The notes below the pieces were generated by a model, which had not been told where the DNA came from, searched no databases, and saw only the letters and a list, made by a program, of their open reading frames with translations. Positions 32,298 through 33,956 of a DNA stretch of 41,377 nucleotides are shown here, one piece after another. Position numbers and translations under genes: made by a program. Within the stretch, counting starts at the first letter, position 1; each line of letters begins with the position of its first letter. The stretch comes from Candidatus Moraniibacteriota bacterium. Its GTDB lineage: Bacteria; Patescibacteriota; Minisyncoccia; Moranbacterales; UBA1568. The stretch lies in assembly GCA_030648835.1 (NCBI GenBank), contig JAUSGT010000002.1, positions 266,081 to 307,457 of the forward strand, given 5' to 3'.

Positions 32298-32365
32298 AAG
32301 ATGTTCCGTTCAGTCGGGAAACGAGCGCAACCCCTGTGAAGTGTTATATATGTCACTTCAGACTG

Positions 32366-32496
32366 CCCTCTCATTTGCGCACGAAGCGCGCAAATGGAGT
32401 GAGTAGTTTGTAGATGGTAGTTGGTAGAGAATTTTTCTACTTACTATTCACTACGTACTACAAACTGTATTCGCGTTTCGCGAATAAGTGAGAGGG
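32366..32496 (+). other. about 130-nt hairpin expansion / IVS-like insertion in 16S helix 40
   Basis: Lies between gactgcc and ggaggaagg; closed by ccctctca/tgagaggg; three internal hairpins. Confidence 0.85.
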
Positions 32497-32723
32497 AGGA
32501 AGGCGGGGATGACGTCAAATCAGCATGGCCCTTTGACACCTTGGGCGACACACGTGCTACAATGGCCGGAATAAAGGGTCGCCAAATCGCAAGATGGAGC
32601 TAATCCCAAAAATTCGGTCTCAGTTCGGATTGAAGGCTGCAACTCGCCTTCATGAAGCTGGAATCACTAGTAATCGTTGATCAGCCACGCAACGGTGAAT
32701 GCGTTCTCGGATCTTGTACTCAC

Positions 32724-33676
32724 AATAAAAGCGCCGGGCAGTTTATCCCGCACTTTGTTCTCTTACAAAAGAGGATGGAGTCGGAATAAGTCTCGTTCTT
32801 GTTTCTTTGCGAAACAAAGTGCGGGATTTATCAATCTAAGGAGTTCAAATCTCCTCCTCCGTTTCCCAAACGGAGCGTAGTTGAAAGGTAGTCGCGTATC
32901 GCGAGGTACGCGGTGAAGGACCTGGAAACGAATGGTAGTCCAACTAAGAAAGAATCGTATCGACTTCTGAACCAAGGCGGTGAGCAGAAGGAAGATATAA
33001 TAGAGCGATTCGTTGGAATGTCAGGAACAGAATGATAGATAACCCCGGGAGATCTTGCGCTGTTTCAATGTCGTGTTACAATGATATTGAATAATGAAAC
33101 TTACGCAGCGTAAGAAGTCAGCTGAGCTATAGTAACTCTCGATTTATCGAGATGAAGGGCTCACTCAGATGCATATGGAAAAAATAACTCCAGATTACAT
33201 CGTTGGTCTTGTGGACGGAGAGGGAAGTTTCACAGTCTATGTGAAAAATCCTGATTCAGATAAGCAAGTCATACGACGAACAAAAGTAGAGCCACGGTTT
33301 TTTCTGAAACTTATCGAGAAAGATAAAAAAATTCTCGACGAACTCAAGAAATTCTTTGGGTGCGGGAACGTGTATTTTCAAAAAGATACTCGTCCCAATC
33401 ATCAAAATTGTTATCGTTATGAAGTAGCCAATAGAAAACATCTGGAAACCATTATTATTCCATTCTTCAAAAGTAATTCTTTGAGGTTACGTTCAAAGAA
33501 AAGTGACTTTGAAATGTTTTGCAGGATTTTCAAAATGATTATGAAGAATGATCATTTCAAAGATTCGGGATTGCGTAGGATATACGCTCTCAAGCAGACA
33601 ATGCATTAGAGCTCGTCGTGTGCGGGAAATCCGCAGGCACGATGGGAACATCAATTCGTAGTTTTACGAAGATAAT
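32724..33676 (+). mobile_element. group II intron at 16S C1399/C1400 (E. coli numbering) carrying a LAGLIDADG ORF
   Basis: Splits gtactcac|cgcccgtc. Domain V at 33612-33646, domain III agta...gaaggg motif, 3' terminal AT, EBS loop ggcggtgag complementary to the exon junction. Confidence 0.9.
33175..33609 (+). CDS. single-motif LAGLIDADG homing endonuclease (intron domain IV)
   Basis: YIVGLVDGEGSF, L..L..FFGCG.V, IIPFF...L...K..DF..F. Start at 33169 or 33175. Confidence 0.93.
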   Translation: MEKITPDYIVGLVDGEGSFTVYVKNPDSDKQVIRRTKVEPRFFLKLIEKDKKILDELKKFFGCGNVYFQKDTRPNHQNCYRYEVANRKHLETIIIPFFKSNSLRLRSKKSDFEMFCRIFKMIMKNDHFKDSGLRRIYALKQTMH

Positions 33677-33956
33677 CGCCCGTCACACCAAGAGAGCCGG
33701 CAATACCAGAAGGCCCCGGGTTAAATCGGGGACGACGGTAGGGTTGGTGATAAGGGTGAAGTCGTAACAAGGCATCCGTAGCGGAAGCTGTGGATGAATC
33801 ACCTCCTTTCTAGGGAGATAAAGGTGTAGAGATGATGATCTATGATCAGAATCACAACCATTATGGTCGTTCATTCGCTTACGTATAGTTTTCTAACGCT
33901 TCGGCGAAAGGAGATTTACCTGTCTATGGCAGGCGTAGTAATGAAACATAATAAAC

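What the first reader, a model, noticed from the sequence alone, without database searches (positions are those of the whole stretch)
32724..33676. RT-less group II intron with a LAGLIDADG endonuclease at 16S C1400, with non-canonical 5' end, triad and branch site
Seen: all six domains can be traced: DI (ccggg 32734 / cccgg to 33048), DII (33053-33115), DIII (33122-33168), DIV closed by atgcat/atgcat holding only the LAGLIDADG ORF, DV (33612-33646) and a short DVI ending in AT. Oddities: the 5' end is aataa-aagcg instead of GUGYG, the DV triad is CGU with the G-U pair kept, the bulge is AG, and DVI has no obvious bulged A. Known: LAGLIDADG-encoding group II introns exist in fungal mitochondrial rRNA and giant sulfur bacteria 16S, and some mitochondrial rRNA ones gained 5' nucleotides, lost the branch point and splice by hydrolysis. 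Inference: a bacterial lineage of linear-splicing, DNA-homing group II ribozymes that must splice for a functional P site.
Basis: partly seen in the sequence, partly recalled or inferred. Interest (0 to 1): 0.88.

Follow-up and report, generated by a model that had tools for sequence, protein, structure and literature searches.

The report
Homing-endonuclease group II intron in 16S
The only 16S rRNA gene of this tiny-genome bacterium is split at its decoding centre by a self-splicing-type (group II) intron that carries a DNA-cutting homing enzyme instead of a reverse transcriptase; this kind of element is already on record for such bacteria, so it is a well-preserved member of a known family rather than a new kind of thing.

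Summary
A 953-nt insert (32724-33676) splits the genome's only 16S gene between E. coli positions C1399 and C1400. It folds as a six-domain group II-type ribozyme. A 146-aa single-motif LAGLIDADG endonuclease lies in domain IV, and there is no reverse transcriptase. The 5' end has a 5-nt spacer before AAGCG. The domain V triad is CGU, the bulge is AG, and domain VI has no bulged A on its 3' strand.

I collected 55 distinct complete relatives, and 71 distinct DV-DVI ends from 85 loci. They show helix covariation and an exon-binding loop retargeted to three adjacent 16S sites (after 1398, 1399, 1402/3). Complementarity runs 2-7 nt on into the 3' exon. Loss of the branch adenosine is confined to one sub-lineage, within which the CGU/AG domain V arose.

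Sister genomes have the empty site, so the element is, or recently was, mobile. Hydrolytic (linear) splicing is inferred, not shown. The RNA-library contigs that join the exons match an intron-less relative.

Group II-like LAGLIDADG insertions at 16S position 1400 of CPR bacteria are published (Tsurumaki 2024). The spacer/no-branch syndrome is also known. Verdict: a new member of a known kind, of moderate interest.

The parts
32719..32723 (+). IBS1: the last five nucleotides of the 5' exon (CUCAC, E. coli 1395-1399)
   Evidence: Complementary to EBS1 GUGAG. The empty site in relatives fixes the junction.
32724..33676 (+). Whole intron, 953 nt
   Evidence: Break in the Rfam 16S alignment, junction reconstruction, empty sites.
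32724..32728 (+). 5' spacer AAUAA between the splice site and the GUGYG-equivalent
   Evidence: All 55 distinct relatives have an A-rich spacer before NNGCG. It is usually 5-8 nt and up to about 30 nt.
32729..32733 (+). AAGCG, which stands where GUGYG stands, directly before the D1 closing helix
   Evidence: The GCG is invariant in 53 of 53 aligned relatives. The two bases before it vary (AA, AU, CU, AC, AG).
32734..33048 (+). Domain I (closing helix 32734-32738 / 33044-33048)
   Evidence: Consensus fold with covariation: for example, the third pair of the closing helix is CG 21, GC 15, UA 14.
32745..32827 (+). Lineage-specific stable hairpin inserted in D1
   Evidence: Present only in the window and the near-identical L065 among the 53 aligned. 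Folds at -37.3 kcal/mol, z -6.25. Not repeated elsewhere in the genome.
32964..32990 (+). EBS1 hairpin. Stem 32964-32969 / 32985-32990. 15-nt loop with EBS1 GUGAG at 32980-32984 and, directly 5' of it, GGCG at 32976-32979, complementary to the first four 3'-exon bases.
   Evidence: The stem covaries.
33053..33115 (+). Domain II
   Evidence: 10-bp closing helix with covariation. Part of the sub-threshold RF01998 match.
33116..33162 (+). J2/3 (33116-33123) and domain III (33124-33162)
   Evidence: RF01998 group-II-D1D4-1 scores 26.6 bits here (cut-off 35). The same model scores 35 or more in 5 of 22 relatives' loci. Covariation.
33164..33611 (+). Domain IV. Its stem is 33164-33174 / 33601-33611, 11 positions with one A.A mismatch.
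   Evidence: Read from the sequence. ORF-less relatives have a short hairpin here.
33169..33609 (+). Single-motif LAGLIDADG homing endonuclease ORF, 146 aa. The start and stop codons lie in the DIV stem.
   Evidence: PF00961, E 6.6e-18. Best solved relatives are I-SmaMI, I-PanMI and the I-OnuI family, E about 1e-25, with D.EGSF conserved. 1789 relatives of similar length; the best 120 are 73-97% identical.
33612..33646 (+). Domain V: triad position CGU 33614-33616, AG bulge 33635-33636, GAAAU loop 33626-33630
   Evidence: The RF00029 alignment of relative L006 maps consensus AGC to CGC and the consensus bulge AC to UC.
33647..33676 (+). J5/6 AAC, domain VI (33650-33673) and the 3' tail AAU
   Evidence: The fold has a 3-bp basal helix, an AA bulge on the 5' strand, a 6-bp helix and no bulge on the 3' strand. 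The inner helix covaries among relatives.
33677..33680 (+). First four nucleotides of the 3' exon (CGCC, E. coli 1400-1403), complementary to GGCG in the EBS1 loop
   Evidence: In relative L004 the 16S has U at 1400 and the loop has the matching A.

Best explanation
This is a mobile group II-type ribozyme intron of the family already recorded at position 1400 of CPR/Patescibacteria 16S genes. It has no reverse transcriptase. A single-motif LAGLIDADG homing endonuclease sits in domain IV.

Shown here:
- It interrupts the genome's sole 16S gene between C1399 and C1400.
- It has the six-domain architecture, and its helices covary across 53 relatives.
- The D1 hairpin loop carries a 5-nt EBS1 matching the last five exon bases. 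Directly 5' of EBS1 are four bases matching the first four bases of the 3' exon.
- The same loop is retargeted in relatives inserted after 1398 or after 1402/1403.
- Close relatives of the host carry the uninterrupted site.

Inferred:
- The transcript folds, and the EBS1-IBS1 pairing sets the 5' splice site 5 nt upstream of the GUGYG-equivalent, the spacer looping out.
- Because DVI offers no bulged adenosine, water rather than a 2'-OH most likely makes the first cut. The intron would then leave as a linear molecule (my odds about 0.6).
- The exons are ligated with the help of the IIA-like multi-base pairing to the 3' exon, restoring the decoding-centre strand.
- The endonuclease, as a homodimer, cuts intron-less 16S alleles, and the intron is copied in by repair.
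For: Identity as a group II-type intron:
- The window scores 26.6 bits on RF01998 (cut-off 35) and has no group I match at E up to 10.
- RF01998 scores 35 or more in 5 of 22 relatives' loci scanned. RF00029 scores 34.9 (cut-off 40) in L006.
- The consensus fold of 53 introns shows several standard pair types at most pairs.

Exon binding:
- The EBS1 loop follows the insertion site: GUGAG for CUCAC, UGAGU for ACUCA, UGUGU for ACACA, GCGGU for ACCGC.
- 48 of 53 introns have a 5-bp EBS1. In 49 of 53 the complementarity continues 2-7 nt into the 3' exon.
- The mean continuation is 4.2 nt, against 2.3 (maximum 2.9) in 200 shuffles of the exon letters.
- L004 has U1400 in its 16S and a compensating A in the loop.

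DVI and DV:
- The window's DVI has no bulge on the 3' strand. 25 of 71 distinct relatives show a 4-bp helix plus an A at -8.
- The triad's third base is U paired with A in 14 of 71 and C paired with G in 57 of 71, a two-sided change.

Need to splice: there is one 16S gene in a 99.84% complete genome.

Mobility:
- The LAGLIDADG ORF is intact.
- G376, G298 and G389 have empty sites.
- 13 of 55 relatives are ORF-less, at 391-486 nt.

Literature (passages read):
- Natural introns without a canonical branchpoint were excised only as linear molecules when tested (PMC4748821).
- C.te.I1, and the mitochondrial rRNA introns described in the same paper, combine a spacer, loss of EBS2, loss of the branch A and hydrolysis. 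For C.te.I1 the paper also reports a IIA-like 3'-exon pairing of up to 4 bp (PMC4024640).
Against: - No splicing product of this intron was observed.
- The RNA-library contigs that join the exons carry the one base difference (G33749A) that an intron-less relative, G389, has. They therefore say nothing about splicing.
- The window fails the curated cut-offs of both Rfam group II models.
- CGU at the triad, an AG bulge and a 5-nt DV loop all depart from the consensus (AGC or CGC; AY bulge: PMC4424553). A crippled ribozyme that needs host help is therefore possible.
- All family members have the spacer, including those with a textbook branch site. The spacer alone therefore does not predict hydrolysis.
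- The pairing statistics count related sequences that are not independent.
Confidence: 0.75

Rival explanations
1. The intron still splices by branching and leaves as a lariat. The nucleophile would be an adenosine that the minimum-energy fold does not show as bulged, for example one of the two unpaired A on the 5' strand of DVI or an A of the 3' strand in an alternative pairing. A host protein might help.
For: - 25 of 71 distinct relatives keep a canonical branch site together with the same 5' spacer, so spacer and branching may coexist in this family.
- The review passage in PMC13190283 says that degenerate DVI features do not necessarily preclude branching.
Against: - No alternative register places an A as a single bulge on the 3' strand 7-8 nt from the splice site.
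- The basal helix has 3 bp, not the 4 bp reported as optimal for branching (PMC4748821).
- Tested natural introns without a canonical branchpoint gave only linear products (same paper).
Confidence: 0.17
2. The RNA is no longer an autonomous ribozyme. Host nucleases would excise the insert, with or without religation (giving a fragmented 16S), or the insert would depend wholly on trans-acting factors.
For: - The DV triad, bulge and loop are non-canonical, and the Rfam scores are below the cut-offs.
- The genome encodes two RVT_1 proteins elsewhere.
Against: - The ribozyme helices, EBS1 and the 3'-exon guide are conserved and covary, including in the 13 ORF-less copies. That argues for selection on RNA-guided splicing and ligation.
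- The triad change is compensated on the other strand.
- The two RT proteins match only RVT_1 in Pfam, with no maturase domain, and no group II RNA lies beside them.
Confidence: 0.07
3. It is a group I intron, the usual carrier of LAGLIDADG genes in rRNA.
For: LAGLIDADG ORFs are typical of group I introns. Relatives' 16S genes do carry group I introns, but at other positions.
Against: - No RF00028 match at E up to 10 anywhere in 32600-33800.
- A DV-like hairpin with a 2-nt bulge, DVI with a bulged A at -8 in relatives, a 3' AU end, and EBS1-IBS1 covariation.
Confidence: 0.01

Closest known systems
CPR 16S rRNA 'group II intron-like insertion sequences' at position 1400 (site 16IS9) of Tsurumaki et al. 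2024, J Bacteriol (PMC11270868; abstract and passages read)
   Same: - Same site: 16S position 1400.
- Same host group. Sources name the close endonuclease relatives Moranbacteria and Parcubacteria, and the genome is 1.01 Mb.
- LAGLIDADG_1 ORF and no RT. The paper counts 53 such insertions, 39 with an endonuclease ORF and 14 ORF-less.
   Different: Nothing in kind: the window is a further member. In the passages I read, the paper classifies these insertions with Rfam models only. I saw no secondary structure, exon-binding sites, spacer, triad or branch-site analysis for them. The enzyme it characterised (I-ShaI) comes from a 23S group I intron.
Mitochondrial rRNA group II introns with 5'-terminal insertions and no branchpoint (Li et al. 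2011; not held, known to me through PMC4424553, PMC4024640 and PMC4748821)
   Same: They lie in rRNA genes and have no RT, and some carry LAGLIDADG ORFs. There are 1-33 extra nucleotides before GUGYG, an altered IBS1-EBS1 pairing and no branch A. The one tested spliced by hydrolysis.
   Different: Those are fungal mitochondrial introns called IIB1. The CPR family has CGC or CGU at the triad and is only 391-486 nt without an ORF. Every member has the spacer, yet many keep a canonical branch site.
C.te.I1 of Clostridium tetani (McNeil and Zimmerly 2014, PMC4024640; passages read)
   Same: A required spacer (8 nt) between IBS1 and GUGYG, an enlarged EBS1 loop, no EBS2, a 3'-exon pairing next to EBS1 of up to 4 bp, a disrupted branch site, and hydrolytic self-splicing.
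   Different: C.te.I1 lies in a protein-coding gene, splices alternatively, and has neither an ORF nor mobility. The element here lies in rRNA and carries a homing endonuclease.
rns-1396 family of Thiotrichaceae (Salman et al. 2012, not held; Liu et al. 2026, PMC13190283, Results read)
   Same: A bacterial 16S intron with a single-motif LAGLIDADG ORF in DIV, a 5' terminal linker in all members, no EBS2, and a small IIC-like backbone.
   Different: The site number given is 1396, against 1398, 1399 and 1402/3 here, and the host phylum differs. Homology was not tested, because I had no such sequence. Liu et al. report no bacterial family other than rns-1396, and their text does not contain 'CPR', 'Patescibacteria' or 'Tsurumaki'.

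Membership tests
Group II intron ribozyme | Six helical domains around a central wheel (D1-DVI) | tested here: met
   All six were traced at the coordinates. D1, DII and DIII helices covary in 53 relatives. DV and DVI helices vary with pairing kept.
Group II intron ribozyme | DV hairpin of about 34 nt with a 2-nt bulge and a G.U pair at the middle of the triad | tested here: met
   33612-33646: 10-bp lower helix, 2-nt bulge, 4-bp upper helix. The RF00029 alignment of L006 confirms the register. The loop is 5 nt (GAAAU) rather than a GNRA tetraloop.
Group II intron ribozyme | Catalytic triad AGC or CGC (PMC4424553) | tested here: not met
   The window has CGU, with the partner changed from G to A. 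57 of 71 distinct relatives have CGC and 14 of 71 have CGU.
Group II intron ribozyme | 5' terminal GUGYG directly after the 5' exon | tested here: not met
   AAUAA followed by AAGCG. Only the GCG is conserved in the family.
Group II intron ribozyme | 3' terminal AY | tested here: met
   Ends in AAU. All 55 distinct relatives end in AAU or AUU.
Group II intron ribozyme | Bulged branch adenosine on the 3' strand of DVI, 7-8 nt from the 3' splice site | tested here: not met
   None in the window. Present in 25 of 71 distinct relatives and absent in the window-type DVI of 31 of 71.
Group II intron ribozyme | EBS1-IBS1 pairing that covaries with the target | tested here: met
   5-bp pairing in 48 of 53 introns. 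The loop sequence follows three insertion sites and two exon variants.
Group II intron ribozyme | EBS2-IBS2 pairing (IIA and IIB) | tested here: inconclusive
   The only shared 5-nt complements to the 7 nt upstream of IBS1 fall in conserved core helices. No convincing candidate was found.
Group II intron ribozyme | Score at or above the curated cut-off of an Rfam group II model | tested here: not met
   Window: RF01998 26.6 against 35, and no RF00029 match. Relatives: RF01998 at 35 or more in 5 of 22 loci.
Group II intron ribozyme | Self-splicing activity | not testable with these tools
   Needs a bench assay. The RNA contigs were uninformative.
LAGLIDADG homing endonuclease (PF00961) | Domain match above the curated cut-off, with the acidic residue of the motif present | tested here: met
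   65.9 bits against a cut-off of 23.1. D.EGSF aligns with that of I-SmaMI.
LAGLIDADG homing endonuclease (PF00961) | Cleaves the intron-less target | not testable with these tools
   Empty sites exist in G376, G298 and G389 for such a test.
CPR 16IS9 group II-like insertions (Tsurumaki 2024) | Insertion at 16S position 1400, group II-like RNA, LAGLIDADG_1 ORF or none, no RT, CPR host | tested here: met
   The host assignment rests on genome size and on the names sources give to close endonuclease relatives.
Group II introns with a shifted 5' splice site (Li 2011 set; C.te.I1) | Spacer before GUGYG, plus multi-base 3'-exon pairing next to EBS1, plus no branch A | tested here: met
   Hydrolysis itself was not tested.
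rns-1396 family (Thiotrichaceae) | Sequence homology of ribozyme and endonuclease; same insertion site | not tested
   No Thiotrichaceae sequence was reachable.
Group I intron | Match to RF00028, or a P3-P9 core | tested here: not met
   No match at E up to 10 in 32600-33800.

The most novel reading that the evidence does not exclude
The CPR 16S introns may be a large, actively homing bacterial radiation of group II ribozymes that all use a displaced 5' splice site and a continuous guide. The guide is 5 nt for the 5' exon plus 2-7 nt for the 3' exon, and it has slid between three neighbouring decoding-centre sites.

Inside this radiation, one clade, which includes this window, first lost the branch adenosine. 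It then changed the catalytic triad (CGC to CGU, with the partner changing G to A) and the DV bulge (to AG).

If that order is real, it is a natural experiment. It would show that constraints on the DV metal-binding core relax or shift once branching is abandoned for obligate hydrolysis. It would do so in an intron whose accurate splicing is essential, because it sits in a single-copy 16S gene.
Probability: 0.4. Interest if true: 0.55.

Novelty: new member of a known kind. Interest (0 to 1): 0.35.

Why it matters
The element itself is a further copy of a published class, so its presence is not news. What the comparison adds is a structural account that I did not find in print for the CPR copies. 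The papers were read only as passages or sections, and supplements were closed.

- Every member splices upstream of the GUGYG-equivalent.
- The exon-binding loop reads across the splice junction, as in C.te.I1.
- The family occupies three adjacent sites with matching loops.
- The branch site has been lost in one clade, and the DV triad and bulge changed within that clade.

Because ORF-less copies of about 400 nt exist beside canonical and branchless relatives, the family offers small, closely related ribozymes for testing three things: what commits a group II intron to hydrolysis, how far the triad tolerates change, and how 3'-exon selection can move from the IIB/IIC mode to the IIA-like mode. 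For genome annotation, it explains why 16S genes of these bacteria are missed or truncated at position 1400.

Tried and rejected
1. Genome-contig scan. My pattern had nine instead of eight free positions in the DV 3' strand. The 42 hits are nearly all in unrelated phyla, at about the number chance would give, and I did not use them. That spent the only scan, so organism names and any Thiotrichaceae relative could not be obtained.

2. RNA evidence.
- Shares of words were at most 0.23.
- In two metatranscriptome runs of one study (X2, X3), one contig each joins 32723 to 33677, skipping 953 nt (shorter side 22 nt, depth 102.7 and 89.1). Two further contigs per run end at 32723 and go on with the first 8 bases of the 3' exon.
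- These contigs carry G33749A. The intron-less 16S of G389 has exactly that sequence, so they may come from an intron-less relative. I do not count them as evidence of splicing.
- The near-absence of cover over the intron in these runs is likewise no evidence.

3. EBS2 search. It found only matches inside conserved helices and is inconclusive.

4. Cross-class control of the guide. It is uninformative, because all sites lie on one short 16S stretch.

5. Trans maturase. There are two RVT_1 ORFs in the genome. They match only RVT_1 in Pfam, and there is no group II RNA beside them.

6. D1 insertion as a repeat element. There is no second copy in the genome.

7. Group I reading. Rejected.

8. Tree. 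It is a FastTree topology on the RNA core, rooted at the midpoint. I did not inspect support values. L095 and L100 (CGU) fall outside the main CGU clade, so either one or two origins of CGU is possible.

9. Rows dropped.
- 28 of 86 loci lacked a findable 5' exon or gave a poor junction.
- L070 and L116 lacked the exact J2/3 word used to cut the 5' parts.
- L088's DVI was mis-parsed.
- L127's junction (4 mismatches) was left out.

Salman 2012, Li 2011 and Mullineux 2010 are not held. What I say of them comes from other papers' passages or from recall. My recollection that a 2015 CPR paper showed insertions to be absent from rRNA transcripts was not checked.
Full report
**Observation.** The window holds one bacterial 16S gene from 31277. 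In a local scan the 16S model stops at 32719 (model position 1386) and resumes at 33675 (model position 1389). Reading the flanks against the conserved decoding-centre string leaves one solution: the 5' exon ends at 32723, the 3' exon starts at 33677, and the insert is 953 nt, between E. coli C1399 and C1400. Two species of the same genus (G376, G298) and one of the same family (G389) have exactly the uninterrupted string. Two minor refinements apply. DIII is better placed at 33124-33162. The DIV stem extends beyond the two AUGCAU hexamers to 33164-33174 / 33601-33611. The only ORF of note is 33169-33609, a 146-aa LAGLIDADG_1 protein. There is no reverse transcriptase in the insert.

**Is it a group II intron?** By itself the window fails Rfam's curated cut-offs. 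RF01998 (group-II-D1D4-1) gives 26.6 bits against 35 over DII-DIII. RF00029 gives nothing, and neither does the group I model at E up to 10. The case rests on relatives.
- A BLAST of the intron against 401 genomes of the phylum, the window's own included, found matches in 10. Six of these match in ribozyme parts.
In 85 of the 86 loci examined (these 80 plus 6 from genomes), the conserved start of the 16S 3' exon lay within about 110 nt downstream of DV.
- From these loci I obtained 58 complete introns, 55 of them distinct, and 71 distinct DV-DVI ends.
- RF01998 reaches its cut-off in 5 of 22 loci scanned. RF00029 gives 34.9 bits (cut-off 40) in L006, and that alignment fixes the register of triad, bulge and branch adenosine.
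- A consensus fold of 53 aligned 5' parts shows two or more standard pair types at most pairs of the D1 closing helix, the D1 sub-helices, the EBS1 hairpin, DII and DIII.

The sequences are kin, so this is not a formal test. Even so, the pattern is that of a conserved structured RNA.

**Exon recognition.** The terminal loop of the D1 hairpin at 32964-32990 ends in GUGAG, complementary to the last five exon bases.
- Among the 55 distinct relatives, 32 sit after 1399, 19 after 1398 and 4 after 1402/1403. The loop follows the site and the exon variant: UGAGU for ACUCA, UGUGU for ACACA, GCGGU for ACCGC.
- 48 of 53 have a 5-bp EBS1. In 49 of 53 the complementarity runs on for 2-7 nt into the 3' exon; the window has four, GGCG against CGCC. 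The mean is 4.2 nt, against 2.3 (maximum 2.9) in 200 shuffles of the exon letters.
- In L004 the 16S has U at 1400 and the loop has the matching A.
- This is the arrangement described for C.te.I1: a IIA-like 3'-exon pairing next to EBS1 of up to 4 bp (PMC4024640).
- I found no convincing EBS2.

**The 5' end.** The five bases before the D1 closing helix, where GUGYG stands in canonical introns, read AAGCG here. In relatives they read AUGCG, CUGCG, ACGCG or AGGCG. Only the GCG is fixed. All 55 distinct relatives have an A-rich spacer before it. The spacer is usually 5-8 nt and reaches about 30 nt, with its own hairpin, in some. The splice site is therefore set by EBS1-IBS1, not by the GUGYG-equivalent. 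This matches the fungal mitochondrial rRNA introns and C.te.I1 (PMC4424553, PMC4024640).

**DV and DVI.** DV (33612-33646) has the usual layout, but with CGU where AGC or CGC stands, an AG bulge and a 5-nt loop.
- Across 71 distinct ends the triad is CGC with partner G in 57 and CGU with partner A in 14. This is a two-sided change. All 14 CGU copies have the AG bulge.
- Bulges overall are UC 38, AG 14, UU 7, AU 6, AC 5 and CU 1. Only 11 of 71 fit the 'AY' consensus (consensus from PMC4424553).
- 25 of 71 have a 4-bp basal helix, a single bulged A at -8 and a 3-nt tail, the textbook branch site. These include 16 of 18 of the site-1398 ends.
- 31 of 71, all at site 1399 and including the window, have a 3-bp basal helix with two unpaired A on the 5' strand and no bulge on the 3' strand.
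- The remaining 15 of 71 are intermediate or unclear.
- On a quick tree of the RNA core, the branchless form is one clade. The CGU/AG form is nested in it, apart from L095 and L100 (support values not inspected).

Tested natural introns without a canonical branchpoint gave only linear products (PMC4748821).

**Need and mobility.** The genome (1.01 Mb, 4 contigs, 99.84% complete) has a single 16S gene. The insert lies in the decoding centre, so removal with ligation is required for a normal small subunit.
- The ORF is intact. Its best solved relatives are the I-SmaMI, I-PanMI and I-OnuI group (E about 1e-25).
- It has 1789 relatives of similar length. The best 120 are 73-97% identical, and sources name some of them Moranbacteria or Parcubacteria.
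- Empty sites in sister genomes and 13 ORF-less copies among the 55 fit the usual cycle of a homing element: gain, decay of the ORF, and loss.
- The genome's two RVT_1 proteins lack a maturase domain, and no intron RNA lies beside them.

**RNA libraries.** Two metatranscriptome runs hold contigs that join 32723 to 33677. These contigs carry the one base by which the intron-less G389 differs from the window, so they cannot be assigned to spliced RNA of this organism.

**Comparison with print.**
- Tsurumaki et al. 2024 report 53 group II-like insertions at position 1400 of CPR 16S genes. 39 carry LAGLIDADG ORFs and none carries an RT. DNA homing is proposed. The window is one more of these.
- Liu et al. 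2026 survey 753 LAGLIDADG group II introns. They list only the Thiotrichaceae rns-1396 family for bacteria and do not mention CPR.
- The spacer, no-EBS2, extended 3'-exon pairing, no-branch and hydrolysis syndrome is described for mitochondrial rRNA introns and C.te.I1.

I therefore file the element as a new member of a known kind. Several things seem unreported for the CPR copies, within the limits and the closed supplements:
- the family-wide spacer
- the sliding guide over three sites
- the co-existence of canonical and branchless DVI
- the CGU/AG domain V nested in the branchless clade

**Limits.**
- No bench data.
- The relatives were collected with a DV word that fixes part of DV, so DV variation outside the free positions is unsampled.
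- Kinship inflates the counts.
- Homology with rns-1396 is untested because the genome-contig scan was lost to a typing error.

Noticed in passing
window 32363-32495: A roughly 130-nt expansion inside the 16S, well upstream of the intron, built of long inverted repeats. RNA-library contigs of relatives skip 84 nt (32392 to 32477, shorter side 42 nt, runs X2 and X3). A contig of another run replaces 111 nt with 29 other letters. This is either length variation among relatives or processing.
   Followed up: no
window 32745-32827: An 83-nt stable hairpin inserted in domain I of the intron (-37.3 kcal/mol, z -6.25). It is shared only with the near-identical metagenome copy L065 and is not repeated elsewhere in the genome.
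   Followed up: partly
L004 (G241), about 2300-2410: This relative has an insertion of roughly 46 nt in the 3' strand of DV, right beside the triad's partner bases. Its 16S reads U at position 1400, with a matching A in the intron's exon-binding loop.
   Followed up: partly
L094, L104, L124 (site 1398); L098, L099 (site 1402/3): The 5' spacer is expanded to about 27-30 nt. In the first three it contains its own hairpin, which covaries between copies.
   Followed up: no
L176 (G000:C1:242907-243521) and L177 (G000:C2:9248-9961): Two reverse-transcriptase ORFs (318 and 418 aa; RVT_1 is their only Pfam match) lie elsewhere in the genome. A weak match to the RT-7 RNA family (33.2 bits, cut-off 116.8) lies just upstream of the second. 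These are probably not intron-related.
   Followed up: partly
L007, L006, L125, L072, L080 and others: The same 16S genes of relatives carry group I introns at other positions. RF00028 scores 51-58 bits in L007, L125 and L072 and below its cut-off of 50 in the others. Multiple intron types pile up in CPR 16S genes.
   Followed up: no
L127: The 16S string breaks already after GTAC, and the distance from the 5' flank to DV is 1282 nt. This suggests a second insertion or another site, and the junction was not resolved.
   Followed up: no
L075, L113: A further structured insertion of about 110 nt lies near the 5' part of domain I of these site-1398 copies.
   Followed up: no
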